The notes below the pieces were generated by a model that was not told where the DNA came from, did not search any database, and saw only the letters and a list, made by a program, of their open reading frames with translations. 64,000 nucleotides of DNA from Candidatus Woesearchaeota archaeon (GTDB lineage Archaea; Nanobdellota; Nanobdellia; Woesearchaeales; DSVV01): contig JACRPI010000020.1 in the NCBI GenBank assembly GCA_016214075.1, positions 55,917 through 119,916 of the forward strand, given 5' to 3'. A program made the position numbers and the translations under genes. Shown one piece after another: positions 9,693 through 60,662 of the stretch; the stretch's first letter is position 1; the number at the start of each line of letters is the position of its first letter.

Positions 9693-9798
9693 GCCTAGGT
9701 AGTGTAGTCTGGTCTATCATGAAGCCCTGTCGAACTGCCTTTTGCAAAAAAGGTGGTAAAGAAAGGCTTCGACCCGGGTTCAAATCCCGGCCTGGGCG
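9693..9798 (+). tRNA. tRNA-Asp(GUC) with 31-nt intron at 37/38 (9733-9763); no encoded CCA
   Basis: Acceptor GCCTAGG/CCTGGGC; anticodon stem AAGCC/GGCTT; CT-GTC-G; T arm CCGGG-TTCAAAT-CCCGG. Confidence 0.93.
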
Positions 9799-24194: not shown

Positions 24195-25577
24195 TCAGAT
24201 ATACCGAATGCCCTTTATGAATGTTCCAACAACACTTCCTGGGAATGTCACTCCTTCAAATGGAGACCATCCTCCTTTTGTTCTTAGGTCTTCGCGTCGC
24301 ACTGTTGTTGGCTTTGTTGTATCGAGAAGCGTCAGTGAGCCATAATATCCTGCTTCTATTCTTCCAAACTTACCAAGACCTGTATGTAGTTGGTTGACAA
24401 AATTACCTGGATTTTCTGCGCAAACTCGCGCAATATCTTGTGGCATGAATCCATGCTCTTTCATGAGCCATGTAGCGATAAGACCATAGGTATCTAATTG
24501 CGGTGTTCCTGATGTTCCATCATGACATGCAAGCGCTCTACATCGTTCTAGATCAGTTTCTTTCAGATGCCTGTAATATTGTTCAGGAGTCATTCCCAAT
24601 CCTTCTTGTTCTTCTGTTTTGAATTGTTTGAATTTTTCCTCTAATGTGTGCGGCGCGTGATCTGTCGCAAGATGTTGAATGAATCCGCTTTTGAGTGCTT
24701 GAATCAATGCAAGCCTGTGTTCTCTTCCTTGCAACGCAGGATTCATCTGTACATACGGCCAGAATTCTGGTCTTTCTTGGAGCATATCTGCGTCATAGAA
24801 GAGGTGGAGTGGAGAAACTTCTAACGCGGTGTTGTATCCTCTTGCTCGATGTTTTGCGATCATCTCAAAACTTTTTCCACCGACAGGCCAATGACAGAGT
24901 TTCGCGTCAAGTTCATACTCTTCGATAATTTGTAGGACATATTCCAACGCTTTTTCCACGCATGCTACAGGTCTTCTTGCTGCGTGTGTTGCTTGTGTTT
25001 TATGTGTTTCTAGAACATCAAAATCTTCTACATGAAAACTCACTCTTTTTCCCTTATAATGTTGGAGTGTGTTTCTTAGTTCTTGTTCGTTTCTAAAAAA
25101 AAGCGTTCCGACAGATGGACCTGTAAACACTTTGTACGCGACTTCTTCTTCTAATGGTCTTGTCTCTGGACCAATTCCTACATAATGGAACATGGTGACT
25201 TCGTACTCATTGCAGCGGTGCTGATGCCAGTGGAGTTGTGCAGAAGTGATCAGTGGCGCAGGGGTGTTTGGCATGTCACTTGTATGAACGACACCTCCAT
25301 GAAGCGCTGCTGCGTTAACTGTTGCGTAGTCTTCTTTGTAGCATTGCTTTTCTGTTTCATCTTCTCGCGCGTGAATATGGATGTCTCCAAATCCTGGAAA
25401 TATAAGAACGCTTTCAGGGAATATATAATCTGGCTTCCCTATTGATCTTTGTTCGAAAAGTCCTGCTCCTTTTTCTACTCTTGTAATAAGTCCTGTCTTT
25501 GCGTCAATTGCAATTTGTCCAAAGAATACGTCGTCAGGTCTTACTATTTGCCCTTCAATGATAACATTATTTACCAT
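24195..25577 (-). CDS. pyrC: Dihydroorotase
   Basis: PGFGDIHIHARE, DMPNT, QMNPAL, TDHAPH, WSPFEG; adjacent to pyr genes. Confidence 0.9.
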   Translation of the reverse strand: MVNNVIIEGQIVRPDDVFFGQIAIDAKTGLITRVEKGAGLFEQRSIGKPDYIFPESVLIFPGFGDIHIHAREDETEKQCYKEDYATVNAAALHGGVVHTSDMPNTPAPLITSAQLHWHQHRCNEYEVTMFHYVGIGPETRPLEEEVAYKVFTGPSVGTLFFRNEQELRNTLQHYKGKRVSFHVEDFDVLETHKTQATHAARRPVACVEKALEYVLQIIEEYELDAKLCHWPVGGKSFEMIAKHRARGYNTALEVSPLHLFYDADMLQERPEFWPYVQMNPALQGREHRLALIQALKSGFIQHLATDHAPHTLEEKFKQFKTEEQEGLGMTPEQYYRHLKETDLERCRALACHDGTSGTPQLDTYGLIATWLMKEHGFMPQDIARVCAENPGNFVNQLHTGLGKFGRIEAGYYGSLTLLDTTKPTTVRREDLRTKGGWSPFEGVTFPGSVVGTFIKGIRYI

Positions 25578-25630
25578 GCTTTTCGGTGTTTTTTTAGGAA
25601 TTATAAAGCTATTCTTTCCTCTTTTCTGTC

Positions 25631-26161
25631 CTATTCTTTTTTTTCAAATTCGTTTTTGAGAATACTGTACATTCGTAAGTTACCATATTGATTGAGTCCA
25701 TTTAACGCTGCCATCCGCTGTGTTCCTTCATAGACAAATCCACATTTCTTAATTACTGTTTGCGACGGGATGTTTTGCTCTAACGCGGTTATATCTATGC
25801 GCACGACCCCTTTTCTTCTGAAGCCATACTCAATCATCTTTTTTACTGCTTCAGTCATATACCCTTTATTTCGATAATCTCTCCCCAGCCAATATCCTAT
25901 TGCTCCGCTGTTACTCTTTTTTCTATACAGAAAATTAATGGATCCCATAACCTCTCCTGTTTTGCTTTTTATTATGAAAATACTATCGTCATTCCTCTTT
26001 CCTTCGTGATAATACTCTCTTATTTTTTTCTTTGTTATAGGAAATGGAATTGTTGTCCAACTCGAGAGTTCTTTGTTTTCTTCTTTAATGATCTTGTACA
26101 CTGCGTTGACATATTTTGGATGTACGGGAACAAGTTCTAGGTTTTTTGTTCTTATTTTCAT
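25631..26161 (-). CDS. RimJ/RimL-family GNAT acetyltransferase
   Basis: IGYWLGRDYRNKGYMTEA, NIPSQTVIKKCGFVYEG. Confidence 0.92.
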   Translation of the reverse strand: MKIRTKNLELVPVHPKYVNAVYKIIKEENKELSSWTTIPFPITKKKIREYYHEGKRNDDSIFIIKSKTGEVMGSINFLYRKKSNSGAIGYWLGRDYRNKGYMTEAVKKMIEYGFRRKGVVRIDITALEQNIPSQTVIKKCGFVYEGTQRMAALNGLNQYGNLRMYSILKNEFEKKE

Positions 26162-26239
26162 TGTTATTATGATATTTTTTAGAAAGATTCTATATTAATG
26201 TTTTGGAAAATAAGAAAAAAAACAAAATCAAAAATGTTT

Positions 26240-27118
26240 TTACAATCGAACTGTCTCATTCATTTTTTGTAATGCCCGCACAGCTGCTCCTGCGTAGTCA
26301 TTTGGATTTCCTTCTTTTTCATATGCCCAATTAATATCTGAGGATGCATTTATTCTATGGATTCTTAGATCTGTACCACTTCTTCTTAATGCAGCAACAA
26401 CTTCTTCTAAGCTTCCTCCCTGTTTTCCGATTCCTGGAATTAAAAAGGGAACTTCTACTCTGCAGTTGACATAAAACCTACTTACTTCTTCCAGTTCTTC
26501 TGTGCCGCCTGTTCCGCCAAACACTGCGCCTATGCCTTGTTTGTACCACCGCTTTCCTATGAGTTCTGCAACATGTCCATATGTGTTGTTGACATCTTGA
26601 ATATCTTTTCTTCCTGGATTTGATGTTCGCAAAAGAATGTAGACCCCTTTTCCTGTATCACAGTACTTTACAAAAGGCATTATGGAATCTTCTCCCATGT
26701 ATGGCGCGACAGTAATTGCGTTAAAGTTCCATTCTTCAGAATTGAACAGCGCTTCTGCATACGCTTCACTTGACGCGCCAATGTCTCCTCGTTTCGCGTC
26801 TCCTATAATTGGAATGTTTAGTCTTCTGCACTCTGCGTTGATCGCATCCAATGCTTCAAGCAATCCGTAGCGTTTTCTTCCTCTCTCAAAATACGCGAGA
26901 TTTGGTTTCACTGCCGCGGGGAAAATTCCTTGTCTTTCACATTCTTGTAAAATGTTGATATAAAATTCTTTTACTGCTCTTTGCACATCTTTGTCTTCTA
27001 ATCTTTGATCGGGTTGGACTTTTGCTATCTTATCGAGTTGTGGATCAATGCCCATGCAGATGATTGATCTTGTTTCATCCGCACGCTGTTTCAGTTGGTC
27101 GAGGTAGTTCATTGTCAT
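26240..27118 (-). CDS. pyrF: Orotidine-5'-phosphate decarboxylase (long subfamily)
   Basis: ICMGIDP, KPNLAYF, DAKRGDIG, LRTSNP, LIPGIGKQGG. Confidence 0.95.
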   Translation of the reverse strand: MTMNYLDQLKQRADETRSIICMGIDPQLDKIAKVQPDQRLEDKDVQRAVKEFYINILQECERQGIFPAAVKPNLAYFERGRKRYGLLEALDAINAECRRLNIPIIGDAKRGDIGASSEAYAEALFNSEEWNFNAITVAPYMGEDSIMPFVKYCDTGKGVYILLRTSNPGRKDIQDVNNTYGHVAELIGKRWYKQGIGAVFGGTGGTEELEEVSRFYVNCRVEVPFLIPGIGKQGGSLEEVVAALRRSGTDLRIHRINASSDINWAYEKEGNPNDYAGAAVRALQKMNETVRL

Positions 27119-27129
27119 TGTTTCACCCT

Positions 27130-27804
27130 TTATTCAAAGCCGTGTTTTTTGCCCCAGCCTTTTGGGTCTGCTTTCCAGTCCATAACAATTGCTTCATGGT
27201 CAGCTGCTATTTTTTCTAATGCTCTCGCTTCTTCTACCATTGCAGTAAAGACTGTTCCTGTGTATAAACTACAGTTTGCTTCTCTAAATGCTTGTTCTGC
27301 TTCTGCCATTTCATAGGTTGAGATTGCTAAACATGCTTCGACAATTCCTCCTGCTTCTCGCACTGGTTGAATTGCTCGAACACTGCTTCCTCCTGTGCTG
27401 ATGTGATCTTCAATGATCAGTACTCTCTGTCCTTGTTCAAATCTTCCTTCTATCTGATTCTTTCTTCCGTGCTCTTTAGGTTTTTCTCGAATGTAAATCA
27501 TTGGTTTTCTTGTTCTGTCTGCAATGATTCCTGCCCATCCTATTCCCGCAGTTGCAATACCTGCAATTACATCATATTCTATTCTATGTTCTTGGATCAT
27601 GTCTAGATATACTTTTACAATAGCTTCTCTTGCATCTACATTAGAAAGTAATGCTCTGTTATCGCAATAGATTGGGCTTTTAATTCCAGATGCGTAGGTG
27701 TATGGTTCTGTTGATCGAATAATAACGCATGCTGCTTCTAGTTGTACTCGTGCCACTCTTCTTTCTCTGCTTTCTGCTGCATACAATGTAGTCATAGTTT
27801 TCAC
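27130..27804 (-). CDS. pyrE: Orotate phosphoribosyltransferase
   Basis: ASGIKSPIYCDNR, KPKEHG, PRPP motif LIIEDHISTGGS. Confidence 0.96.
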   Translation of the reverse strand: MKTMTTLYAAESRERRVARVQLEAACVIIRSTEPYTYASGIKSPIYCDNRALLSNVDAREAIVKVYLDMIQEHRIEYDVIAGIATAGIGWAGIIADRTRKPMIYIREKPKEHGRKNQIEGRFEQGQRVLIIEDHISTGGSSVRAIQPVREAGGIVEACLAISTYEMAEAEQAFREANCSLYTGTVFTAMVEEARALEKIAADHEAIVMDWKADPKGWGKKHGFE

Positions 27805-27819
27805 CTTGTTTCTTCCTTC

Positions 27820-28755
27820 TTACAAAATCTTTAGTTTTCCTTTCGCGTCATCAATACTCGCGTATCCTTTCTTCTCTAAGAATAATCTTAATTCATTATC
27901 CAATCGTTCAAAACATGTAGGACCTTCTTTTTGCAATGTTGTGCCGACTTGCACTGCGCTTGCTCCCGCTAACAAGAATTCAAACGCGTCAACTCCTGTC
28001 TGAATTCCTCCAACGCCAATGATGTCGATGTCTGCTCTGAGGAGTTCTCTAAATTTTCTGACATTCGCGAGCGCGATTGGTTTGATATATGCGCCTCCTA
28101 AGCCACCGAACCCTCCTTTTGGTTTGATAACGACTGATTCTGTTTCGGGATCAATGAAGAGCGCGTTGCCGACGGAATTAATGCAGGTCACAAATTTTAT
28201 GTTGTACTTATTTAGTATTGCTGCCATTTGTTCAAAGTGCACAAAATCAAAATATGGAGAGAGTTTAACGCCGAGCGGCTTTTTGCTGATCTTTGTTATT
28301 TCCCTCAGCACTACTTCTGTTTGTTCGAAATCATAACATACTTGTGGTTTTCCTACAATGTTTGGACAGGAAAGATTTACTTCATACGCATCAATTTCTG
28401 GAATAGTGTTGAGGTGATTAATGATTTTCATATTGTCTTCTAACTTTAATCCAGAAACACTCACCAAATATGGTTTTTTGAACTTGTTTTTTAGGATCGG
28501 AGCGAATTCTCCATACTTCATGTAGCCGAGATTTGGCAAACCCATAGAATTTATTGAGCCCAGATTGAGTTCTTTATATCGTGGTTCTGGATTTCCTTCT
28601 CGCGGTTCATATGTGCAGGATTTTGAAAGAATGACTCCGCTTTTTGACGCGCCTAGTGCTTCCAAATGTTCGATTGTTGTGCATTTTGGACCAGACGCGT
28701 TAAAGAAATAGGTTTCCAATGGAATTCCTCCAATGGTTGTTTTCAGGTTCGTCAT
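27820..28755 (-). CDS. pyrD: Dihydroorotate dehydrogenase, class 1A (fumarate-type) by motif
   Basis: NASG, SINSMGLPNLG, EVNLSCPNIVGKPQ, KLSPYFD, FGGLGG, GVGGI. Confidence 0.93.
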   Translation of the reverse strand: MTNLKTTIGGIPLETYFFNASGPKCTTIEHLEALGASKSGVILSKSCTYEPREGNPEPRYKELNLGSINSMGLPNLGYMKYGEFAPILKNKFKKPYLVSVSGLKLEDNMKIINHLNTIPEIDAYEVNLSCPNIVGKPQVCYDFEQTEVVLREITKISKKPLGVKLSPYFDFVHFEQMAAILNKYNIKFVTCINSVGNALFIDPETESVVIKPKGGFGGLGGAYIKPIALANVRKFRELLRADIDIIGVGGIQTGVDAFEFLLAGASAVQVGTTLQKEGPTCFERLDNELRLFLEKKGYASIDDAKGKLKIL

Positions 28756-29718: not shown

Positions 29719-29770
29719 TTTTCTTATTTTATTTGTTCTTCACATGTCCTTAAAATATTATTTCAAAAAT

Positions 29771-29900
29771 ACCCCATTGCTGACGCAATGGGTCCCCCTG
29801 ACAATCTTGCTTTTGCAGGTGCGTGTTTCTGCTGCTGAGCGAATATTCGCCTTATTGCTTGAATCGCATCGCAGTCCTATTGAATCCCTATATCTTTATT
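29771..29900 (+). repeat. Dispersed hairpin element, copy 3 (with extended tail)
   Basis: ACCCCATTGC-TGAC-GCAATGGGTCCCCCTGAC..GGTGCGTGTTT..CTGAGCGAATATT..GCAGTCCTATTGAATCCCTATATCTTTATT. Confidence 0.9.
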
Positions 29901-30535: not shown

Positions 30536-31309
30536 TTAAAGTTTGCGCTCTTTTACTCCATTATAAGATGTTTCTTTATCTTCTAATCTTCTAAACGGTT
30601 TCTCTTTGCACGCTTCTTCATGAACATGCGCAATAATACTTGCAGTTCGTGGTAAGATGAAAAATCCTCGCCCAATCTTCCAGTCAAAACCCATTTCGAG
30701 TATGACTGCAGCGATCGCGCCATCAATGTTGATGCAGAGTTTTTTTCCTTTCTTCTTTTCTAAATAGGATTCTATTTTTTGCACTGTTTCAATATATTTT
30801 CCTGCATAGCCTGCTTTCTTTGCTTGCTGAAAAATCGCCTGCGCTCGTGGATCATGGTCTGTGTAGATTTTGTGGCCAAAACCAGGAATGCGCTGCTTTC
30901 TTTCCATCATGTTGTCCACAATATGTTTCGCAATCTCTTCTGCTGATTTGTTTTTCATTTCTTCATCGATATGCGAATGAAGGAGTTGCGCGCATTGTTC
31001 CATCGCGCCGCCATGATGCTGACCAATCGCTAATATTCCTGCCGCAACCGCGCTGTTCATTTGTCCTGAACCAGAATATGCGATTCGCGCAGCGGTGATT
31101 GATGGTGGAGTTATTCCATGTTCCATCGCGCTGATAAGAATGGTGTTGAACAATGCTTCTTCTTTTTTGTTTGGAAGTTCTCCTTTCCAAAGTAACCAAA
31201 TTGCTTGGGTGAAATTGCATTTGGTCATCAGGTCTTCGACATTATAACCTCTGATGAGTGTCTTTTCTTCTGTCGCAACACTGATAGATGTTTTCCAGCC
31301 TTGTTCCAT
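30536..31309 (-). CDS. ccl: Citryl-CoA lyase (citrate-synthase homology domain)
   Basis: IRGYNV, EHGITPPS, HHGGAME, IPGFGH, DPRA, NIDGAIA. Confidence 0.88.
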   Translation of the reverse strand: MEQGWKTSISVATEEKTLIRGYNVEDLMTKCNFTQAIWLLWKGELPNKKEEALFNTILISAMEHGITPPSITAARIAYSGSGQMNSAVAAGILAIGQHHGGAMEQCAQLLHSHIDEEMKNKSAEEIAKHIVDNMMERKQRIPGFGHKIYTDHDPRAQAIFQQAKKAGYAGKYIETVQKIESYLEKKKGKKLCINIDGAIAAVILEMGFDWKIGRGFFILPRTASIIAHVHEEACKEKPFRRLEDKETSYNGVKERKL

Positions 31310-31370
31310 ATCTCTTGCTGAGATACGGTTGTTTATATTGCTTGTGGAAGAAGAATGTGTTGTTGCTATT

Positions 31371-31529
31371 TTATAACTCTCCTTTTCTGTCTGCTATGAT
31401 TGTATCATAAACAGACCATGCTTGACAACATCCGCATCCATTCTCATAATTTGGACAATGTTTTCCGTATAAGTTTTCTATTTTATGTTTCAGCCAATTT
31501 TCATAAACTCTTTCTTTCCTTTTTGTCAT
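31371..31529 (-). CDS. 52-aa Cys-rich microprotein (not in ORF track)
   Basis: Manual translation MTKRKERVYENWLKHKIENLYGKHCPNYENGCGCCQAWSVYDTIIADRKGEL. Confidence 0.55.
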   Translation of the reverse strand: MTKRKERVYENWLKHKIENLYGKHCPNYENGCGCCQAWSVYDTIIADRKGEL

Positions 31530-31605
31530 CACAAATGTTGTTATTCACTTCTATTTAACTCTTTCCTCAACAAAATATTTATACTCTTTTTTTATCCTTC
31601 TTTTT

Positions 31606-31983
31606 ATGGTCATAAAAAATGTCGTTACTGTTTTTATTTTTCATAATAATAAACTTCTTTTACTCAAAAGAAAAAAACAACCATATTTAGATTGCTGGGC
31701 TCCTCCTGGCGGGAAATTGGATGGTGATGAATCTCCTGAACAGGCTGCAGTTCGAGAGATAGTAGAAGAAGTGAATCTTCATGTTACTCTTGAAAAATAT
31801 CTTGGTTCGTATCTCAACCCAGAAACAGAAGTCCTCGATCATGTATTTACTACAACTTCTTTCTCAGGCACTGTGCATAACAACGAACCAGAGAAACACG
31901 AAACTGTTGCTTGGTTTTCCTTAGATGAAATCCCTCAAAACACGAGTTGGATAGTGAAAAGATGGCTGGAATTGAAGAAATGA
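31606..31983 (+). CDS. NUDIX hydrolase
   Basis: Nudix box GGKLDGDESPEQAAVREIVEEVNL. Confidence 0.93.
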   Translation: MVIKNVVTVFIFHNNKLLLLKRKKQPYLDCWAPPGGKLDGDESPEQAAVREIVEEVNLHVTLEKYLGSYLNPETEVLDHVFTTTSFSGTVHNNEPEKHETVAWFSLDEIPQNTSWIVKRWLELKK

Positions 31984-31989
31984 ACTAAA

Positions 31990-32880
31990 TTATTCTAACA
32001 ACTCCTTTACTCTCTCCACAATCTCATGATGCACTTCAACGACATGAACACCTGCAGAATTTAATGCAGCGACTTTCGCCGCTCGTGTTCCTTTGCCTTC
32101 TTCAATAATTGCTCCTGCATGACCTAATGTTGTTGAAGGGAGCATTTCTGCGAATTTTCCAGAAATAAACGCAATCACTGGTTTTGGATAGTTTGTTTTT
32201 TTGATATACTCCGCAGCGTCTTCTTCTGCTGTTCCTCCTATCTCTCCAAACAGAACAATTACTTTTGTTTCTTCATCGCTTTTGAACATTTCTAACAGTT
32301 CTACGTAATTTGTGCCCATGATAACATCTGCGCCACAACCCACTACTGTAGATTGTCCAATCCCTGCTTTTGTCAGAATAGATGCTGTTTCTGAAGACAT
32401 ACCGCCGCTCTTTGAAATAATTCCTACATTTCCTTTACTGAATTGTTCACTTGTTAATCCGCCAATCATCCCCACTTTTGCTTTTCCTGGACTAATGATG
32501 CCAATAGATGTTGGACCAATAATTGTTGCATGGTGTTTTTTTGCTAGCGCAACACAGTGTGCAGTATCTTTGATAGGAATGTTTTCTGTAATGACATTAA
32601 TGAGCTTGATGTTTGCTTCGAGCGCTTCAATCACTGCGTCTTTCGCTCCTTTTGCTGGCACGATAATTATGGATATGGTGATGTCTGGATGCGTTTGCAT
32701 TGCTTCTTTGCAACTATTGTAGACAGGAACTCCCTCTACTGTTTCTCCTCCTTTACCTGGACGGACTCCCGCAACGACATTTGTTTGGTAAGATTGCATA
32801 AACTGCGTTGCTCGAATTCCTTCTTTTCCAGTTATTCCTTGCACAAGGACTTTTGTTTTCTCGTTGATTAAAATGCTCAT
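31990..32880 (-). CDS. Citryl-CoA synthetase alpha / SucD-like CoA-binding subunit
   Basis: VLVQGITG, IGPTSIG, SKSGGM, GEIGG, phospho-His LGHAGA. Confidence 0.9.
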   Translation of the reverse strand: MSILINEKTKVLVQGITGKEGIRATQFMQSYQTNVVAGVRPGKGGETVEGVPVYNSCKEAMQTHPDITISIIIVPAKGAKDAVIEALEANIKLINVITENIPIKDTAHCVALAKKHHATIIGPTSIGIISPGKAKVGMIGGLTSEQFSKGNVGIISKSGGMSSETASILTKAGIGQSTVVGCGADVIMGTNYVELLEMFKSDEETKVIVLFGEIGGTAEEDAAEYIKKTNYPKPVIAFISGKFAEMLPSTTLGHAGAIIEEGKGTRAAKVAALNSAGVHVVEVHHEIVERVKELLE

Positions 32881-32933
32881 TTTTGTTTGCTCTCGTTGTT
32901 TTATTTTGTATTTTACTTCTTTTAATAATAAAT

Positions 32934-32995
32934 ACCCCATTCCCACTTCATGTGGGAATGGGTCCCCCTGATGTTTTTGCCTTTGTTGGTGCGTG
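32934..32995 (+). repeat. Dispersed hairpin element, copy 4
   Basis: ACCCCATTCCCAC-TTCAT-GTGGGAATGGGTCCCCCTGAT ... GGTGCGTG. Confidence 0.9.
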
Positions 32996-33037
32996 TTTTT
33001 TCTTTACTTTGCATTTTTTTACTTCTTTATTTTTTTT

Positions 33038-34231
33038 CTAACAAGCACAGCGTTTTCTCTCCTGTATTTTTTCAGCCATTTTTTTTGCCGCAACAGTAAT
33101 AGGTGTTTCATCGCCATACCATTCCATATCTAAGCAGAGTTCTTTTGCTGTTTGTTCGACTACTATTTTCGCTTCCTTATCTCCTGGTCCTGCGCGTCTG
33201 AAGATAATGGGATATTCAGGTTTTAATTCTTTGATGACTTTTATGATCGCAGCGATTGTTTCATGAATCTGCGTAAAATTCGCTTTTGCTCCGACGACAA
33301 ATAATCCCTTGAGATTTGGTTTGTGCATCACAATTCTTGTCAACGCTTCCACTTTTTCTGGACTTGGATTTCCACTGTATTCTGTATAATTCGCAGGCTT
33401 TTGCTTGTAGCTGATCAGCGCGTCCACTGCTGTAATGCTTGCGCCGCCACCTGACGCGAGTATGCCAACATCTCCTTCTAATTCGATGTATGTTTTTCCC
33501 GCAATTCCTCTGTGATCGAGTTCGTTGACCTTGTTTGCCGCGATTTCTGCCTCTGTTTTTTCTCTGCCTATTCCTACTCTTTGTGGGAATTGAATATTTT
33601 GTCTGAACAACGCATCGTCGTCAAGAATTATTTTCGCGTCAGCCGCGATGAGATCGTTGCTTTCTGTTTCAATAAGTGGATTTATCTCGAGTAATTTCAT
33701 ATCTTTGTCTATAAATAATTTGTAGAGCTTTTCCAATAGTGGAATCATCTGCAGATTTGCTATTCCTGCTTTGTGAAGGATGTGCTTTGCTTCATGTTCT
33801 GTGATGCTGTTGAGGATGTTTACTTGTTCCACAATCACTTTGCTTGGATGGATATTTTTTGTTTCTTCAACATCTACTCCTCCTTGACTGCTTGCGATGA
33901 TCACCGGATTTCTTGTCTTTGTGTCGTAGGTTATTGCGAGGTAGAACTCGTTTTTTATCTTGCACTTTGTTTCGATGAGGAGTTTTTTTACTGTTTCAAA
34001 GCTGTGGTGTTCGTGGAGGAGTTGTTTTGTTATTGTTTGAATCTCTTCTTTTGTTTTTGCGGATTTGATTAACCCCGCTTTTCCTCGCTTACCTTCTAAT
34101 GTCTGCGCTTTGATGATTACTTCTTCTGTTGGTTCTTGGATTTCTCTTGTGTTTTCTATTATGTATCCTTCTGGAACAGCTATTCCTGCTTCTTTGAGGA
34201 GTTGTTTTCCTTCGAATTCGTAGAGTTTCAT
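33038..34231 (-). CDS. Citryl-CoA synthetase beta / ATP-citrate lyase beta-like ATP-grasp subunit
   Basis: KLYEFEGK, GKRGKAGLI, LEINP; SGGGAS, ANYTEYSGNP and ANFT resemble ACL citrate-binding motifs rather than SucC NGAG/NFLD. Confidence 0.85.
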   Translation of the reverse strand: MKLYEFEGKQLLKEAGIAVPEGYIIENTREIQEPTEEVIIKAQTLEGKRGKAGLIKSAKTKEEIQTITKQLLHEHHSFETVKKLLIETKCKIKNEFYLAITYDTKTRNPVIIASSQGGVDVEETKNIHPSKVIVEQVNILNSITEHEAKHILHKAGIANLQMIPLLEKLYKLFIDKDMKLLEINPLIETESNDLIAADAKIILDDDALFRQNIQFPQRVGIGREKTEAEIAANKVNELDHRGIAGKTYIELEGDVGILASGGGASITAVDALISYKQKPANYTEYSGNPSPEKVEALTRIVMHKPNLKGLFVVGAKANFTQIHETIAAIIKVIKELKPEYPIIFRRAGPGDKEAKIVVEQTAKELCLDMEWYGDETPITVAAKKMAEKIQERKRCAC

Positions 34232-36483: not shown

Positions 36484-36978
36484 TCACATATTCTCTATCT
36501 TCTTCATTACTTCTTTATACATATCAATAGAGAGATAAAAACCAGAAGAGATCATTCCATCAATATATTGTTTTGCTTCTTTTTTTGTTATTTTTTTCTC
36601 TTGCAATAAGAGTAATATTACATATACTGTTCCGTGTCTCTTTACTCTTAATGATTCTGCAACCTCTCGCGCATATATTTCATCTATAATCGCAATGGCG
36701 TTTTTCTCTCTTGCAAGAAAAATAACTTCTACATCCGCTTGGCTCAGGGGTATTTTTCTCTCTCTCTTTATTCTTGTTTTTTCTACAAGAAACTTCTTTT
36801 CTCTAATGAGGTTGTTCACATATGTCGCTTCAGTTTCTCTTCTTTCCAATCCTTTGAGAACAACTTCATCATACACACGTTGCGGTATGAATTTCCTTCC
36901 AGAAAGAAGTGAAACTTTCTCTAAAGCACGAACTTTTCCCAAATAGATAAGTGGTGATGCATCAAAGACATAATCCAT
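36484..36978 (-). CDS. PIN-domain toxin (DUF3368-like)
   Basis: YVFDASPLIYL, AIIDE..AR, HGTVYVIL. Confidence 0.88.
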   Translation of the reverse strand: MDYVFDASPLIYLGKVRALEKVSLLSGRKFIPQRVYDEVVLKGLERRETEATYVNNLIREKKFLVEKTRIKRERKIPLSQADVEVIFLAREKNAIAIIDEIYAREVAESLRVKRHGTVYVILLLLQEKKITKKEAKQYIDGMISSGFYLSIDMYKEVMKKIENM

Positions 36979-37274
36979 CAGAATGCCTCCAGATCCTCCT
37001 GGACAGCTCTATCTTTCACCCACTGAATTTTTGCTTCTTTTATTTTCGCAGTCAATGACCAGATATCTATTCCCGCAATCTCTGCCGCTTTACTTACTGT
37101 TGTTTTTCCCTCAGATAAAAGCTTGAGCGCGTGTTCGAGTCTCCACTCTTCCAACGATTTGAAGAGAAGTTTTCGTAATGCCGCTGACTTTTCCAAATGC
37201 TCTTCTTTCATATATACTTCTAATTCTGCTTCCAGGACTTCTGGAATTCTTGCGGAGATATTTACTTCAGTCAT
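36978..37274 (-). CDS. UPF0175-like antitoxin
   Basis: ISARIP, KSAALRKLL, EGKTTVSKAAEIAG; coupled to the PIN gene. Confidence 0.85.
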   Translation of the reverse strand: MTEVNISARIPEVLEAELEVYMKEEHLEKSAALRKLLFKSLEEWRLEHALKLLSEGKTTVSKAAEIAGIDIWSLTAKIKEAKIQWVKDRAVQEDLEAF

Positions 37275-38747: not shown

Positions 38748-40157
38748 ATGCAGCTCTCTCCAGATCAACAAAAGGCAATTGACAGCCAAAAAGCGCAATG
38801 TCCCTTCTGCAAGATTGTCAAAGGAGAAATTCCTAGCAAAAAAGTCTACGAAGATGATCAACTCCTCGCAATTCTTGACATCAACCCTGCCGCGAAAGGG
38901 CATCTTCTCATTATGCCTAAAGAACATTATCCCATTATGCCATTAATTCCTCCTCCTCTTTTTGAACATCTTTTTACGCGAACAAAACAACTTTCCGCTG
39001 CGATGAAAGAAGGCATGCTGCTTTTTGGCAACACGCTTTTCATCGCAAACGGCTACGCCGCTGGACAACAGAGCAGCCACTTTATGCTGCATCTTATTCC
39101 TAGGGAAGCTCCTGATGATTTAGAGTTTTTTCAACCTAAAAAAGGAATTATCGATAAAGCGAAATTGCAGGAAACATTCAATCTATTGAAGCACAATCTT
39201 CCGATCATGCTTCGCCAGCGCTTTTCGCTTTATCCCATTCCTGGGCAGGAACAACCGCGTGTTGAAGCACAGCAAACACAAGTACGTTCCTCAGTTTCGT
39301 CTGTTGAACAAGAATACTCATCTCCTCCACAACCATCAGCACTGCAACAACCTTCGTCATCAGTCCGCTCACCTGCAGGTTACACAAAAGAAACAGTCAT
39401 CAAATTGGTGGAATCTAATGATCAACTCAAACAATTTGTTATTCAATATCCTGAAGAATTCAAGAAACAAGTGCAGCAAAGCGGTCGCTTGAAATCTGTG
39501 TTCGCGAACATTGATGTTGATGACATTATCGCGCATTTCGCTCCTCCGAAAAAAGCAGAGTCTCAGTATTCTATGGATGAGCTTGTTGATTTGGTCAATG
39601 ATAATCCAAAACTCAAAGAGCTTCTTTTGAAACAGACCTTCTTGTTCACAGAAAAAATTCAGCAGGTTTCGGAATTGAAGGAACTCTTTGAAGGCGTTGA
39701 TGTTGAAGCATTAGAGCGCGCAGTGATTGCCCGCGATGTTCATCAGGAACAGGATGTGCAAGAAATTCTTGCTCCGTTTAAAGAGAAGACTGCTTCTGCG
39801 ACACAGTTTGCAAGTAGTCTTGTTGATACAGAGACGCTCAAAAACCTTGCGCCGCATCTGGAGATTCCTGCCGCAGAGAATCCTGCGGAGATTCAGGATG
39901 AAGATGAATCTATTACAAACCTTCATGCTTTTGGGGAAGAGGAATCATCTTCTGAAGCTGGCGAAGAGTACTCTGAAGAACAACAAGAAGAAGCTAAAGA
40001 ACAAGAGCAGCAAAAAAAATATGTAAAAAAACCGTTTTCAAAGAAACAGAAAGAAGGAAACGAAGCATCACCGGAAGAACCAGAAGAAAAATCAAAAAAA
40101 GGAGCAGATCTTGATCTGATTTCCCGCCTTCATCGGGAAATGTTACAACGACAATGA
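38748..40157 (+). CDS. HIT-like domain protein with long acidic C-terminal extension (degenerate triad)
   Basis: CPFCKIVKGEIP..DINPAAKGHLLIMPKEH; triad reads HFMLH. Confidence 0.85.
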   Translation: MQLSPDQQKAIDSQKAQCPFCKIVKGEIPSKKVYEDDQLLAILDINPAAKGHLLIMPKEHYPIMPLIPPPLFEHLFTRTKQLSAAMKEGMLLFGNTLFIANGYAAGQQSSHFMLHLIPREAPDDLEFFQPKKGIIDKAKLQETFNLLKHNLPIMLRQRFSLYPIPGQEQPRVEAQQTQVRSSVSSVEQEYSSPPQPSALQQPSSSVRSPAGYTKETVIKLVESNDQLKQFVIQYPEEFKKQVQQSGRLKSVFANIDVDDIIAHFAPPKKAESQYSMDELVDLVNDNPKLKELLLKQTFLFTEKIQQVSELKELFEGVDVEALERAVIARDVHQEQDVQEILAPFKEKTASATQFASSLVDTETLKNLAPHLEIPAAENPAEIQDEDESITNLHAFGEEESSSEAGEEYSEEQQEEAKEQEQQKKYVKKPFSKKQKEGNEASPEEPEEKSKKGADLDLISRLHREMLQRQ

Positions 40158-40726
40158 CGTGCCCTCTTTGCTCCATCAGCCAGAAACATGTTGCGAGCCA
40201 GATTGTGTATGAAGATGCTGTTTGTCTCGCGTATCTTCCTTCTGACGCTGCCGCTGTTGGTCATATTCATGTCATCCCCAAAGATCACATAGAAACGTTG
40301 GAACAGCTTCCTGATTCTCTCGCGACGCAACTCTTCTATGTCGCAAGCTACGCCGCAAGCGCGATCTATGAAGGACTCGCATCACACGGAACAAACATTA
40401 TTTGTAACAATGGCGCGGGCGCAAAAGGACATCTTTCTCTTCACATTATTCCCCGTTTTGAAAACGATGGCATTTCTTTGACGTGGCAGCCAAAACAACT
40501 TCCTCCTCCAGATTTTGAGGACGCGATGAAGAAGATAAAAGACAAAGCGGATTTTATTGATTACAAAGGCGCGAAGAAAGAAGCTCCTGCTCTGCAACAA
40601 GCAATACAGCCAGAAGCAGTTGCTGTTCCTCAAGACGTTGTTTCTGTAAAAGACGCTCCTAAAGAGATTATCACTACATCTGATGAAGAAAATTATATGG
40701 TCAAGCATTTGTATAGGATACCGTAG
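40154..40726 (+). CDS. HIT-like protein (degenerate triad)
   Basis: CPLC..VGHIHVIPKDH; triad reads HLSLH. Confidence 0.85.
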   Translation: MTCPLCSISQKHVASQIVYEDAVCLAYLPSDAAAVGHIHVIPKDHIETLEQLPDSLATQLFYVASYAASAIYEGLASHGTNIICNNGAGAKGHLSLHIIPRFENDGISLTWQPKQLPPPDFEDAMKKIKDKADFIDYKGAKKEAPALQQAIQPEAVAVPQDVVSVKDAPKEIITTSDEENYMVKHLYRIP

Positions 40727-52278: not shown

Positions 52279-53138
52279 ATAAGGAGCGCCACTACATGCG
52301 ATGAAAGCGCAAATAAATATTCTGAAATGGTGTGCATAGAAAGAGACATAGGAACACCTTTCAGTTCTTTTTTTCGCACATCAGAAAGCATTGTGTTTAT
52401 GCGCATTGCTTCTTCGAGTTTGTTCGCAAAGAGTGCGGATTGCAGCGCAGCAAAAGCATCAGTTTTTTGCTTAAGAAGTTCATATTCATGGTTTGACCAT
52501 ACTTTTTTTGTTCTTCCAATATCCACATAACACCCTGCAATTTTCTCTGCAAGAAAAACAAGTGTATAATATTCATAGCATCTATCATTTTGGAACGTAG
52601 TTTTATTGATTATAAGTTGACAGTAATCTCTTAGTTTTAGGATAGATATTCTCAGATCTTCTGCTTCTTTTGTCGTTTTCTTTTCCTTGATGTTTTCTAA
52701 AACTTCTTCTTGAAGCACTGTAATTGACGTAAAAAACTTCTGTAATACTGTTGCAAGCGTTGCTGTGTCAATCTTTAGTATATTTTTGATAATTACTTCT
52801 CTTTTACTTTGCTTTACAATGACTAGGCCAAGTAAGGTATCGACAATGCGCTGCATTGATGCGTAAGAAAAGTCTTCAGTGCTTCTCAATGTTATTGTTG
52901 TATATCCTCTTCTATACGCAGAAGCAAGAATTGTTCTTATTCGTGAATCATTCTGATTCTTTATTTCAAACGTCGTTGCTCTCTCCTGTTTTTGATATTC
53001 TGCTGCAATAAGAAGATTTCCATGACGCTCTTCGATCGTCACTTCTTCCTCTCCTGAAAGATTGTGCGCTCTCACCCATTCGATAGGAAGCGTGACAGTA
53101 AACCCTCCCGCGCCTTGTTTGATGAGTTTTCGCTTCAT
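52275..53138 (-). CDS. AbrB/SpoVT N-terminal + PhoU-like regulator
   Basis: RKLIKQGAGGFTVTLPIEWV; LASAYRRGY; helical repeats. Confidence 0.85.
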   Translation of the reverse strand: MKRKLIKQGAGGFTVTLPIEWVRAHNLSGEEEVTIEERHGNLLIAAEYQKQERATTFEIKNQNDSRIRTILASAYRRGYTTITLRSTEDFSYASMQRIVDTLLGLVIVKQSKREVIIKNILKIDTATLATVLQKFFTSITVLQEEVLENIKEKKTTKEAEDLRISILKLRDYCQLIINKTTFQNDRCYEYYTLVFLAEKIAGCYVDIGRTKKVWSNHEYELLKQKTDAFAALQSALFANKLEEAMRINTMLSDVRKKELKGVPMSLSMHTISEYLFALSSHVVALLI

Positions 53139-53178
53139 CTCTCTTGGAGAGATGCTGTTTCTTTTATAGTTTTGCTTT

Positions 53179-53204
53179 TTATATTATTCATATTAATAAT
53201 ATAA
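53179..53204. promoter_or_regulatory. Candidate operator in divergent promoter
   Basis: TTATATTATT-CATATT-AATAATATAA inverted repeat. Confidence 0.35.
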
Positions 53205-53300
53205 GAAAAATATAAATACTTGATGGATAACTATTCTATAGTGACGAAAGTCATAGATTACAGAAACAACAAAAAAAGAGAAAACAAAGGTGAATGAAAA

Positions 53301-53744
53301 ATGAGTGGATACAATGAAAGTAATAGTGGTTGGGCAATGTTTGGAAAAGCAACAGTGTGGGTAGTAGGATTAGGAGCTCTTGGGACAGGATTATATTTTG
53401 GCGGAAACTCGCTTTACCAAGAAGGAGTTAGTGATGGGAGAAATACGACATTACGAGAAACTTCCGCAGCATATGAGCAAAAACAAGCAGATCTCGTTGC
53501 AGCAGGTCTTGTTCTTCCTGAAAAAGGCTGTTTGCGTTATAAGAAAGAAGTGAACAGAGATGGCGATCCTATTAACGTAATTTCTTGCAGTGGTTCTTCT
53601 GCTACATTAGAACTTCGTCTTGTAAATGACACATTTGGGATTTTGACTTATACACAAGGAGCTGTTAAAAACACACTTACTCCTTTGTATGGTGACTTTT
53701 TATCCTTAAATAGGTATGTTACAAAAATAGAGCAAGTAAAATAG
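53301..53744 (+). CDS. Hypothetical membrane-anchored protein
   Basis: N-terminal Gly-rich TM helix. Confidence 0.7.
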   Translation: MSGYNESNSGWAMFGKATVWVVGLGALGTGLYFGGNSLYQEGVSDGRNTTLRETSAAYEQKQADLVAAGLVLPEKGCLRYKKEVNRDGDPINVISCSGSSATLELRLVNDTFGILTYTQGAVKNTLTPLYGDFLSLNRYVTKIEQVK

Positions 53745-53869
53745 ATAACAAATAATTTTTTCTTTTCTTCCATTTCCTTTATAAACTTTAAGCTGCTATC
53801 GTAAGAAAACAGTAAAATCTTACGATGCCATCGTAAAGTTTATAAATAATCATGCTTTTCTTATGATAT

Positions 53870-60341: not shown

Positions 60342-60662
60342 GTAGGGTGTCACGGTGTTATCGGAAACAACTCTGAAACGGGTTGTTCCTGAGGAAAGTC
60401 CGTCCATCACAAAAAGGCGACCTACGGAAGTAGGATCTTGAAAAAGATGGCAACCACACAGAAACGCACTCCTTTGCGATAATGGAATGACGCACGCGAC
60501 GTCTTTGGTAACAGAGATAAGTAAGCTGCTGACGTCTCGCAGAGTGAAGATGAAACGGTGAGCCCTTGCTGATGCAAGTTCGTTTTGAACGCTGAGTAGA
60601 ATACACTGACCACTTGTTCATGTTTCGTGAAAGTGCACAGAAGACGGCTTATGGCACCCTAC
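60342..60662 (+). ncRNA. rnpB: RNase P RNA
   Basis: P1 GTAGGGTGTC/GGCACCCTAC; GAGGAAAGTCC; ACAGAAAC; GAAACGG; GATGCAAG; ACAGAAGACGGCTTA; P2 CGGTGT/ACACTG; P3 hairpin. Confidence 0.93.

What the first reader, a model, noticed from the sequence alone, without database searches (positions are those of the whole stretch)
30536..34231. Three-gene split ATP-citrate-lyase-like system in a reduced archaeon
Seen: same-strand beta (ATP-grasp), alpha (CoA-binding, GHAG phospho-His) and standalone citrate-synthase-fold lyase genes. The beta subunit has SGGGAS, ANYTEYSGNP and ANFT, matching ACL citrate-binding motifs (AGGGAS, NYGEYSGAP, IANFT) rather than SucC (NGAG, NFLDxGG). Established: citrate cleavage can be done by separate citryl-CoA synthetase plus citryl-CoA lyase (Hydrogenobacter). 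Inference: automated annotation would probably call this sucCD, but it more likely converts citrate to acetyl-CoA + oxaloacetate, or runs in reverse for substrate-level ATP. The cluster is interrupted by a NUDIX gene, a Cys microprotein and a repeat copy.
Basis: partly seen in the sequence, partly recalled or inferred. Interest (0 to 1): 0.62.

Follow-up and report, generated by a model that had tools for sequence, protein, structure and literature searches.

The report
Split citrate-cleaving enzyme trio in archaeon
A tiny groundwater-type DPANN archaeon with no Krebs cycle carries the three genes of the two-step, ATP-dependent citrate-splitting system (citryl-CoA synthetase plus citryl-CoA lyase); this is a real but already recognised kind of system, and public pipelines often mislabel its first two genes as succinyl-CoA synthetase.

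Summary
Three minus-strand genes encode a CcsA-like large subunit (33038-34231), a SucD-like small subunit (31990-32880) and a 257-aa citryl-CoA lyase (30536-31309). A NUDIX gene, a conserved 52-aa Cys-rich ORF and one copy of a dispersed repeat lie between them.

The large subunit hits Pfam Citrate_bind, falls below both NCBIfam SucC cut-offs and matches Hydrogenobacter CcsA best in the PDB. It carries the ACL-type citrate-site motifs. The lyase passes the NCBIfam citryl-CoA lyase cut-off. Neither synthetase subunit lies inside the SucC or SucD clade, although the deep branching is unresolved.

The trio is a conserved operon in many DPANN archaea and CPR bacteria. The genome (98% complete) has no match for aconitase, isocitrate dehydrogenase, PFOR, ACS or ACD. 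It has Pta-AckA, malic enzyme and an aspartate aminotransferase. I therefore favour cleavage of imported citrate to acetyl-CoA plus oxaloacetate. The direction is inferred, not shown.

This is not new. A 2022 preprint reports these homologs in DPANN and CPR, NCBI already names the lyase, and this scan has 287 earlier notes mentioning these enzymes, on other DNA. Verdict: a new member of a known kind, of modest interest. The open question is its role in an organism without a TCA cycle.

The parts
33038..34231 (-). Large (beta, CcsA-like) subunit of citryl-CoA synthetase, 397 aa: an ATP-grasp domain plus a citrate-binding domain. ACL-type citrate-site motifs: SGGGAS 33437-33454, ANYTEYSGNP 33365-33394, ANFT 33272-33283, FRRAGP 33185-33202.
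   Evidence: Pfam ATP-grasp_2 scores 147 bits and Citrate_bind PF16114 scores 83 bits. NCBIfam SucC scores 240 bits against a cut-off of 370. The best PDB match is 6hxq_B, H. thermophilus CcsA, at 187 bits, ahead of Thermus SucC at 156. It lies outside the SucC, ACL and classic CcsA clades. Motif table; coordinates.
32939..33003 (-). Copy of a dispersed intergenic repeat in the beta-alpha spacer. On the minus strand it reads GGGGGACCC, then a hairpin, then GGGGTATTTATTATTAAAAG; the A/T-rich tail could act as a TATA-like element about 45 nt upstream of the alpha start.
   Evidence: It is 74% identical to 29769-29833 and has more than 40 further copies across the genome. Sequence read. The element is also present in the same-genus genome G001, where this stretch is part of an 89%-identical alignment. 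The promoter role is inference only.
31990..32880 (-). Small (alpha, CcsB/SucD-like) subunit, 296 aa counted from Met23 of the 318-aa ORF: CoA-binding Rossmann domain (QGITGKEG, 32818-32841) and the phospho-histidine loop GHAGA (32110-32124).
   Evidence: Pfam CoA_binding, Ligase_CoA and Succ_CoA_lig. NCBIfam SucD scores 314 bits against a cut-off of 336. The best PDB match is Aeropyrum SucD at 285 bits, ahead of H. thermophilus CcsB at 228. In the tree it lies outside the 100%-supported SucD clade and with the alphas of other DPANN trios.
31353..31993 (.). A 641-bp stretch absent from the same-genus genome G001, where alpha and ccl are 5 bp apart in the alignment. It carries the NUDIX gene, the Cys-rich ORF and the divergent spacer between them.
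   Evidence: blastn of the window against L015. It is single-copy in the genome. The same NUDIX and Cys-ORF pair lies between alpha and ccl in GCA_053532915.1 (L141).
31606..31983 (+). NUDIX hydrolase, 125 aa, MutT-like, on the opposite strand inside the cluster.
   Evidence: Pfam NUDIX at 2.8e-22. It reaches only sub-threshold scores against NCBIfam equivalogs. No link to the citrate enzymes is shown.
31371..31529 (-). A 52-aa Cys-rich ORF (H-C-x6-C-G-C-C), co-oriented with and directly upstream of ccl. Probably a real gene; function unknown.
   Evidence: It has no Pfam or NCBIfam hit. One homolog, 78% identical and 54 aa long, sits at the same position in a relative.
30536..31309 (-). Citryl-CoA lyase, 257 aa: the citrate-synthase large-domain fold with the catalytic His99 (HHGGA, 31004-31018), His146 (GFGHK, 30869-30883) and Asp196 (NIDGA, 30716-30730).
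   Evidence: NCBIfam NF004869 citryl-CoA lyase scores 298.6 bits against a cut-off of 212. The best PDB match is 6hxp_A, H. thermophilus CCL, at 221 bits, against 80 bits or less for citrate synthases. The catalytic residues are invariant in A1. It groups with the Aquificota and Leptospirillum CCLs; E. coli citrate synthase and an ACL CCL domain are distant.

Best explanation
The three genes encode a two-step, ATP-dependent citrate-cleaving system of the citryl-CoA synthetase / citryl-CoA lyase (CCS/CCL) type. The proposed mechanism follows the known chemistry of the succinyl-CoA synthetase / ACL superfamily. ATP bound in the ATP-grasp domain of the large subunit phosphorylates the histidine of the GHAGA loop in the small subunit. 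The phosphate passes to citrate held in the large subunit's citrate-binding domain, and CoA displaces it to give citryl-CoA. The separate 257-aa lyase, which keeps the citrate-synthase His/His/Asp triad, then splits citryl-CoA into acetyl-CoA and oxaloacetate. These steps are inferred from homology and conserved residues, not measured here. The genome gave no match for aconitase, isocitrate dehydrogenase, a second citrate synthase, PFOR, ACS or ACD, so the module cannot belong to a TCA or reverse-TCA cycle. I infer that it works on imported citrate. In that scheme acetyl-CoA goes to acetyltransferases and through Pta-AckA to acetate plus ATP, which repays the ATP spent. Oxaloacetate goes to aspartate through the aminotransferase (a pyrimidine gene set lies next door), or to pyruvate through malic enzyme. 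The enzyme identity is well supported. The direction and the physiological role are inference, at roughly 60% for cleavage.
For: The large subunit hits Citrate_bind, both synthetase subunits fall below the SucCD equivalog cut-offs, and the lyase exceeds the citryl-CoA lyase cut-off. The best solved relatives are H. thermophilus CcsA and CCL. The large subunit carries the motifs that hold human ACLY Gly309, Asn346/Thr348 and Arg379 (numbering checked against PMC13670275). The catalytic residues of the lyase are invariant. The SucC and SucD clades, each with 100% support, exclude the window subunits. The beta-alpha-ccl order is conserved, often with overlapping genes, in Woesearchaeota, Nanoarchaeota, Aenigmatarchaeota, Daviesbacteria and Microgenomates. 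In this genome the lyase is the only citrate-synthase-fold gene and the synthetase genes are the only SucC- and SucD-like genes. No match was found for aconitase, IDH, PFOR/OGOR, Ldh-type MDH, thiolase, HMG-CoA reductase, ACS or PFL, and the single AMP-binding protein is PaaK-like. Present are Pta, AckA and malic enzyme and an aspartate-aminotransferase-like enzyme.
Against: The small subunit's best PDB match is an archaeal SucD, not CcsB. The large subunit lies outside the clade that holds the characterised CcsA, and AU tests cannot reject it being sister to SucC (p 0.41), ACL (p 0.23) or classic CcsA (p 0.19). No citrate transporter is identified: a TctA-family permease lies 6.5 kb away, but 36 of 41 relatives have one whether or not they have the trio, and there is no CitT homolog. 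The genome also has PDH E1 alpha, E1 beta and E2, so acetyl-CoA may come from pyruvate and the reverse reaction cannot be excluded. No canonical E3 was found, however. A repeat element and an opposite-strand gene break the operon, so co-expression of the three genes is not assured.
Confidence: 0.8

Rival explanations
1. The same enzymes run in reverse: acetyl-CoA (from the pyruvate dehydrogenase-like complex) plus oxaloacetate (from aspartate) form citryl-CoA, and the synthetase converts it to citrate while making ATP. This would be substrate-level phosphorylation, as reported from memory for the ATP-citrate lyase of Desulfobacter.
For: Reactions of the SCS/ACL superfamily are close to equilibrium (established knowledge). 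PDH E1 alpha (471 bits against a cut-off of 411), E1 beta, E2 and a LipA-like gene are present, as is an aspartate-aminotransferase-like enzyme.
Against: Citrate would be a dead end, because no aconitase or IDH was found. Pta-AckA already recovers one ATP per acetyl-CoA without consuming oxaloacetate. No canonical E3 was found for the PDH, and no PEPC, PEPCK or pyruvate carboxylase was found to supply oxaloacetate.
Confidence: 0.13
2. It is an ordinary succinyl-CoA synthetase (SucCD) that happens to lie near a truncated or degenerate citrate synthase.
For: The top NCBIfam names are SucC and SucD. The alpha subunit's best PDB match is Aeropyrum SucD. The AU test cannot reject the beta subunit as sister to SucC.
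Against: Both subunits score below the SucCD cut-offs. The beta subunit lacks the SucC motifs NGAG / DVGGGA / GGIxRC and has the ACL citrate-site motifs instead. Both subunits lie outside the 100%-supported SucC and SucD clades, which do include true SucCD from other DPANN. The third gene is a full-length citryl-CoA lyase above its curated cut-off, not a fragment. The genome has no enzyme found here that would make or use succinyl-CoA: no OGOR and no SucA or SdhA homolog.
Confidence: 0.03
3. The trio acts on a related hydroxy-tricarboxylate or dicarboxylate rather than citrate, for example 2-methylcitrate, homocitrate or malate.
For: The DPANN/CPR large subunits form their own groups outside the clade of the characterised CcsA. 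Earlier notes of this scan describe CCS/CCL-like trios in other bacteria with a probably different role (unchecked).
Against: All four positions that bind citrate in ACLY are conserved. The lyase groups with the characterised H. thermophilus CCL and keeps the whole citrate-synthase catalytic set. No propionate, lysine or glyoxylate pathway genes were seen next to the cluster.
Confidence: 0.04

Closest known systems
Citryl-CoA synthetase CcsA/CcsB plus citryl-CoA lyase Ccl of Hydrogenobacter thermophilus (PDB 6hxq, 6hxp; Aoshima et al. 2004, cited from memory)
   Same: Both have three separate polypeptides with the same domain set. H. thermophilus CcsA and Ccl are the best PDB matches of the large subunit and the lyase. 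The phospho-His loop and the lyase His/His/Asp triad are conserved. The lyases fall in one family in the tree.
   Different: The large subunit is outside the 100%-supported Aquificota/Leptospirillum CcsA clade. Its citrate-site motifs are ACL-like (ANYTEYSGNP, ANFT), not PANFTDIGGNP and TANNT as in classic CcsA. The small subunit is 296 aa and SucD-like in length, against 353 aa for CcsB. Here the three genes are clustered, whereas in the Aquificota loci examined ccl is not next to ccsAB. The host has no reverse TCA cycle.
ATP-citrate lyase (AclB/AclA of Chlorobium limicola, 6hxj; Methanothrix concilii, 6hxi; human ACLY)
   Same: The overall reaction is the same. The citrate-site motifs AGGGAS / ANY.EYSG.P / ANFT / RRGGP are almost identical, and the Pfam Citrate_bind domain is shared.
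   Different: In ACL the alpha part is fused to the CCL domain; here they are separate genes with an opposite-strand gene between them. The large subunit is outside the 100%-supported ACL clade. Its ATP-grasp half scores as SucC-type: ATP-grasp_2 gives 147 bits, while Citrate_synth_N gives 67 bits against a cut-off of 83. An ACL CCL domain is very distant from this lyase.
Succinyl-CoA synthetase SucCD
   Same: The two-subunit architecture, the ATP-grasp plus CoA-binding and phospho-His chemistry, and high similarity of the alpha subunit.
   Different: Both subunits are below the equivalog cut-offs and outside the SucC and SucD clades. The substrate-site motifs differ. The pair sits in an operon with a citryl-CoA lyase.
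CCS/CCL trios of DPANN archaea and CPR bacteria (bioRxiv 10.1101/2022.10.25.513756; NCBI 'citryl-CoA lyase' records)
   Same: This locus is one of them. It has the same gene order, the same motifs and 40-60% identity to trios of Woesearchaeota, Aenigmatarchaeota, Daviesbacteria and Microgenomates.
   Different: In this lineage the operon is interrupted by a NUDIX gene plus a Cys-ORF and by a dispersed repeat. The genome also lacks PFOR, ACS and ACD, which most of its relatives have.

Membership tests
Citryl-CoA synthetase / citryl-CoA lyase (CCS/CCL) | Large subunit has an ATP-grasp domain plus a citrate-binding domain | tested here: met
   Pfam ATP-grasp_2 at 147 bits and Citrate_bind PF16114 at 83 bits against a cut-off of 26.8. 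Best PDB match is CcsA, 6hxq_B.
Citryl-CoA synthetase / citryl-CoA lyase (CCS/CCL) | Small subunit has a CoA-binding domain and the catalytic phospho-histidine loop | tested here: met
   CoA_binding and Ligase_CoA domains. GHAGA at aa 253-257.
Citryl-CoA synthetase / citryl-CoA lyase (CCS/CCL) | Stand-alone lyase of about 260 aa with the citrate-synthase fold and the His/His/Asp catalytic residues | tested here: met
   NF004869 scores 298.6 bits against a cut-off of 212. 6hxp_A scores 221 bits. H99, H146 and D196 are invariant. It groups with the Aquificota and Leptospirillum CCLs.
Citryl-CoA synthetase / citryl-CoA lyase (CCS/CCL) | Synthetase subunits branch with the biochemically characterised CcsA/CcsB | tested here: inconclusive
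   The window subunits lie outside the 100%-supported classic clades. The backbone is unresolved, and the AU test does not reject a sister relationship (p 0.19).
Citryl-CoA synthetase / citryl-CoA lyase (CCS/CCL) | Citrate- and ATP-dependent formation of citryl-CoA, followed by its cleavage | not testable with these tools
   This needs an enzyme assay.
Succinyl-CoA synthetase (SucCD) | Scores at or above the NCBIfam equivalog cut-offs | tested here: not met
   Beta scores 239.6 bits against 370. Alpha scores 314.2 bits against 336.
Succinyl-CoA synthetase (SucCD) | SucC substrate-site motifs (NGAGL, NFLDVGGGA, NIFGGIxRC) | tested here: not met
   The window protein has SGGGAS, ANYTEYSGNP and GAKANFT. 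All 15 SucC sequences compared carry the SucC motifs.
Succinyl-CoA synthetase (SucCD) | Branches inside the SucC and SucD clades | tested here: not met
   The SucC clade (15 rows) and the SucD clade (11 rows) each have 100% SH-aLRT support and exclude the window proteins. A position as sister to SucC is not rejected.
ATP-citrate lyase (AclAB / ACLY) | Alpha (CoA-ligase) part fused to the CCL domain in one polypeptide | tested here: not met
   Alpha and ccl are separate genes 680 bp apart, with a NUDIX gene on the other strand between them. Fused forms do exist in other genomes of the same order.
ATP-citrate lyase (AclAB / ACLY) | Citrate-binding residues equivalent to human Gly309, Asn346, Thr348 and Arg379 | tested here: met
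   An alignment with human, M. concilii and C. limicola ACL shows all four conserved. The role of these residues is recalled from the ACLY structural literature. Their numbering is consistent with PMC13670275.
ATP-citrate lyase (AclAB / ACLY) | Branches inside the ACL clade and has an ACL-type ATP-grasp domain | tested here: not met
   The ACL clade has 100% support and excludes the window protein. Pfam Citrate_synth_N scores 67 bits against a cut-off of 83.

The most novel reading that the evidence does not exclude
The DPANN/CPR trio may be a third lineage of citrate-activating enzymes: split like CCS/CCL but with an ACL-type citrate site, and close to the point where ACL arose by fusion. In TCA-less, PFOR-less symbionts such as this one it would be the entry point of a short citrate-based metabolism. 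Host-derived citrate would be split into acetyl-CoA and oxaloacetate. Pta-AckA and malic enzyme would then turn these into ATP, acetate, aspartate and pyruvate, much as cytosolic ACLY feeds eukaryotic cells.
Probability: 0.35. Interest if true: 0.55.

Novelty: new member of a known kind. Interest (0 to 1): 0.3.

Why it matters
The CCS/CCL pair is usually read as a marker of the reverse TCA cycle and of autotrophy. In this genome no other TCA enzyme was found, so its presence cannot mean CO2 fixation. Metagenome surveys that score rTCA potential from these genes will overcount DPANN and CPR genomes. Pipelines that call the first two genes sucCD will invent a succinyl-CoA step that is not there. 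If the module does cleave scavenged citrate, it identifies a concrete metabolite that these ultra-small symbionts may take from hosts. It would also identify the main recognisable source of acetyl-CoA where PFOR, ACS and ACD are missing. The split and fused forms found side by side in one archaeal order offer natural material for studying how ATP-citrate lyase arose.

Tried and rejected
1. I first proposed that the trio is the sole acetyl-CoA source. That was weakened when PDH E1 alpha, E1 beta and E2 turned up, although no canonical E3 was found.

2. I tested whether the trio and PFOR/ACD/ACS are complementary among 41 relatives. G000, G001 and G012 have the trio and none of the three. G011, G020 and G031 have both the trio (or its synthetase genes) and PFOR. 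The holders are also close kin. The pattern is suggestive only.

3. I tested the nearby TctA-family permease as a citrate importer. The family is in 36 of 41 relatives regardless of the trio, so there is no specific link. phmmer with E. coli CitT and DcuC found nothing.

4. AU tests meant to pin the large subunit to one named clade rejected none of the three placements.

5. I asked whether the 641-bp NUDIX/Cys stretch is a mobile cassette. It is single-copy in the genome and sits at the same place in a second relative, so it was not shown to be mobile.

6. I looked for a link between the NUDIX gene and CoA. The only hit to CoA pyrophosphatase has E = 0.0099, so I did not pursue it.

8. No structure prediction was run; the sequence evidence was already decisive for the fold.

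Full report
**What is there**

The window comes from an archaeon: an archaeal RNase P RNA lies at 60342-60662. The genome is 1.62 Mb in 46 contigs, 98% complete and 1% contaminated. Close homologs and earlier notes place it among Woesearchaeota-type DPANN archaea.

The minus strand of 30536-34231 carries three genes:
- a 397-aa ORF at 33038-34231
- a 318-aa ORF at 31990-32946, whose homologs start at its Met23 (so 31990-32880, 296 aa)
- a 257-aa ORF at 30536-31309

Between the second and third genes lie a plus-strand NUDIX gene (31606-31983) and a minus-strand 52-aa Cys-rich ORF (31371-31529). Between the first and second lies a repeat copy (32939-33003).

**Identity of the three proteins**

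*Large subunit.* It has Pfam ATP-grasp_2 (147 bits) and the ACL citrate-binding domain PF16114 (83 bits, cut-off 26.8). Against NCBIfam it reaches 240 bits on the SucC equivalog, whose cut-off is 370. Its best solved relative is the H. thermophilus citryl-CoA synthetase large subunit (6hxq_B, 187 bits). Thermus SucC follows at 156 bits and C. limicola AclB at 123.

*Small subunit.* It has the CoA-binding and CoA-ligase domains and the GHAGA phospho-histidine loop. It scores 314 bits against the SucD cut-off of 336. Its best PDB match is Aeropyrum SucD (285 bits), ahead of CcsB (228 bits).

*Lyase.* It passes the NCBIfam citryl-CoA lyase model NF004869 (298.6 bits, cut-off 212). It matches the H. 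thermophilus lyase 6hxp_A at 221 bits, against 80 bits or less for any citrate synthase. The citrate-synthase catalytic residues His99, His146 and Asp196 are invariant in an alignment with DPANN, CPR and Hydrogenobacter lyases.

I took reference sequences from PDB alignments, from E. coli K-12, from named genome contigs and from genomes of the same phylum.

In the large-subunit tree three clades each have 100% SH-aLRT support:
- SucC, including true SucC of other DPANN
- ACL, including human, M. concilii, C. limicola and four DPANN ACLs
- classic CcsA, from Hydrogenobacter and Leptospirillum

The window protein is in none of them. It sits with its family's homologs in an unresolved backbone made of DPANN and CPR sequences.

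The small-subunit tree gives the same picture. The SucD clade (Aeropyrum, E. coli, Leptospirillum and DPANN SucD) has 100% support and excludes the window protein, which groups with the alphas of other DPANN trios.

There is a caveat. AU tests do not reject placing the window large subunit as sister to SucC (p 0.41), to ACL (p 0.23) or to classic CcsA (p 0.19). The deep relationships remain open.

The lyase tree puts the window protein in one family with the Aquificota and Leptospirillum lyases. E. coli citrate synthase and an ACL CCL domain sit on very long branches.

**Substrate-site motifs**

I aligned 67 large subunits on the human ACLY numbering. That numbering is consistent with PMC13670275. 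The citrate-ligand roles of Gly309, Asn346, Thr348 and Arg379 are recalled from the ACLY structural literature.

- All 40 DPANN/CPR sequences, including the window protein, carry ANY.E[YFH]SGNP, ANFT and RR.GP, as ACL does.
- Classic CcsA has ANFTDIGGNPP and TA[NS]NT.
- SucC has ANFLDVGGGA and NIFGGIxRC.

**Gene neighbourhood**

In the same-genus genome G001 the three genes are contiguous. Window 31353-31993 (641 bp, holding NUDIX and the Cys-ORF) has no counterpart there.

In a third relative, GCA_053532915.1, the NUDIX and Cys-ORF pair is again between alpha and ccl, and an ACT-domain gene lies between beta and alpha. The Cys-ORF is 78% identical there, so it is probably a real gene.

The beta-alpha-ccl order, often with overlapping genes, recurs in Woesearchaeota, Nanoarchaeota, Aenigmatarchaeota, Daviesbacteria and Microgenomates. 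In the Aquificota, Zixibacteria and Ignavibacteria loci examined, ccl is not next to a synthetase.

The repeat between beta and alpha belongs to a family with more than 40 copies in this genome.

TATA-like A/T boxes lie upstream of beta, alpha and ccl. The three genes may therefore not form a single transcript. This is inference.

**Distribution**

The trio is patchy. Citrate_bind occurs in 6 of 41 related genomes, and the lyase is above its cut-off in 6 of 41. A SucC-like match occurs in 44 of 201 genomes of the phylum, none above the SucC cut-off.

**Metabolic context of this genome**

| Status | Enzyme or family |
|---|---|
| Not found (profile search) | aconitase |
| Not found (profile search) | isocitrate dehydrogenase |
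| Not found (profile search) | PFOR/OGOR |
| Not found (profile search) | Ldh-type malate dehydrogenase |
| Not found (profile search) | a second SucD/ACD |
| Not found (profile search) | thiolase |
| Not found (profile search) | HMG-CoA reductase |
| Not found (profile search) | AcsA |
| Not found (profile search) | PFL |
| Not found (profile search) | GTP-PEPCK |
| Not found (profile search) | HMGL-like carboxylase or decarboxylase |
| Not found (phmmer with E. coli proteins) | ATP-PEPCK, PEPC, CitT, CitE/F, SdhA; only a weak 25-bit SucA hit on the PDH E1 beta gene |
| Present | phosphotransacetylase |
| Present | acetate kinase and a short malic enzyme |
| Present | aspartate-aminotransferase-like enzyme |
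| Present | PDH E1 alpha (above its equivalog cut-off), E1 beta, E2 and a LipA-like gene |
| Not found | canonical dihydrolipoamide dehydrogenase (E3) |

The one AMP-binding protein is PaaK-like, not an acetyl-CoA synthetase.

On the same strand, downstream of the cluster, lie LemA, HtpX, pyrD, pyrE, pyrF, a GNAT acetyltransferase and pyrC, followed by a TctA-family permease.

**How it most likely works**

The enzyme chemistry follows the SCS/ACL superfamily. The sequence is ATP to phospho-His, then citryl phosphate, then citryl-CoA, then acetyl-CoA plus oxaloacetate. This is inferred from homology and conserved residues.

Citrate has no other fate or source in this genome, so cleavage of imported citrate is the most economical reading. 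Pta-AckA would repay the ATP. The aminotransferase or malic enzyme would take the oxaloacetate.

The reverse, ATP-yielding direction is chemically possible. It would make a dead-end product and would offer nothing beyond what Pta-AckA already gives. I put cleavage at about 60%, reverse at about 13%, and the remainder on other substrates or on no clear direction. No transporter for citrate could be tied to the module.

**Comparison with what is known**

This is a member of the CCS/CCL kind. Three of its defining features were tested and met. Clade membership with the characterised enzyme is inconclusive.
- It is not SucCD: three features were tested and not met.
- It is not an ACL in architecture or clade, although its citrate site is ACL-like.

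**Novelty**

A 2022 preprint (10.1101/2022.10.25.513756) reports CCS and CCL homologs in DPANN and CPR and notes that they are misannotated as SCS or CS. PMC8091004 lists the genes in a few DPANN genomes as rTCA markers of unclear meaning. NCBI names the DPANN and CPR lyases 'citryl-CoA lyase', and one source tags a homolog K15232. This scan holds 287 earlier notes that mention these enzymes, in at least 266 other genomes. They include a CPR case read as an acetyl-CoA supply for sugar N-acetylation.

I found no paper addressing the role of the trio in TCA-less organisms. That remains the open and moderately interesting question.

Noticed in passing
L138:2548-4251(-) (G195) and L139:2671-4365(+) (G061): Two genomes of the same order encode a 564-567-aa protein in which the alpha subunit (residues 1-300) is fused through a linker of about 20 aa to a CCL domain, directly after a CcsA-like beta gene. 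Both halves group with the split DPANN forms, not with true ACL. This looks like an ACL-like fusion arising inside the CCS/CCL group. Four other genomes of the order have true ACL (L124-L127, L140).
   Followed up: partly
window 30536-31309 compared with 31990-34231: The lyase of this genus is sister to CPR (Daviesbacteria/Microgenomates) lyases with 96% support. Its beta and alpha subunits group instead with the same-family archaea G011, G012 and G020. The lyase gene may therefore have a separate history, possibly a replacement by transfer, which would fit the break in the operon at that point.
   Followed up: partly
G000:C2:36239-42421: A bacterial-type pyruvate dehydrogenase E1 alpha, E1 beta and E2 plus a LipA-like gene occur in a DPANN archaeon, with no canonical E3 anywhere in the genome. 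As called from the first start codon, the E1 alpha ORF has an N-terminal extension of about 95 aa rich in Lys and Arg.
   Followed up: partly
G000:C5:47839-48966 and 52876-53868: Bacterial-type acetate kinase and phosphotransacetylase genes lie about 4 kb apart, in an archaeon that lacks the usual archaeal ADP-forming acetyl-CoA synthetase.
   Followed up: partly
window 24195-28755: A pyrimidine gene set (pyrC, pyrF, pyrE, and a pyrD matching the NF002702 dihydroorotate oxidase equivalog), with a GNAT acetyltransferase inside it, lies on the same strand just downstream of the citrate cluster. The pathway consumes aspartate, which could come from oxaloacetate. This link is speculative.
   Followed up: no
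L141:2369-2743: In the relative GCA_053532915.1 an ACT-domain gene (124 aa) occupies the beta-alpha spacer where this genome has the dispersed repeat. It could be a small-molecule-sensing regulator of the synthetase.
   Followed up: no
window 36484-37274: A PIN-like (DUF3368) gene and a UPF0175 gene sit between the PEP-utiliser paralogues. They look like a toxin-antitoxin pair.
   Followed up: no
window 38748-40726: Two adjacent HIT-domain genes. The first is 469 aa, and its long C-terminal part has no Pfam match.
   Followed up: no
window 9693-9798: Rfam finds a second tRNA here (46 bits, 106 nt long, so probably intron-containing) that ARAGORN did not report.
   Followed up: no
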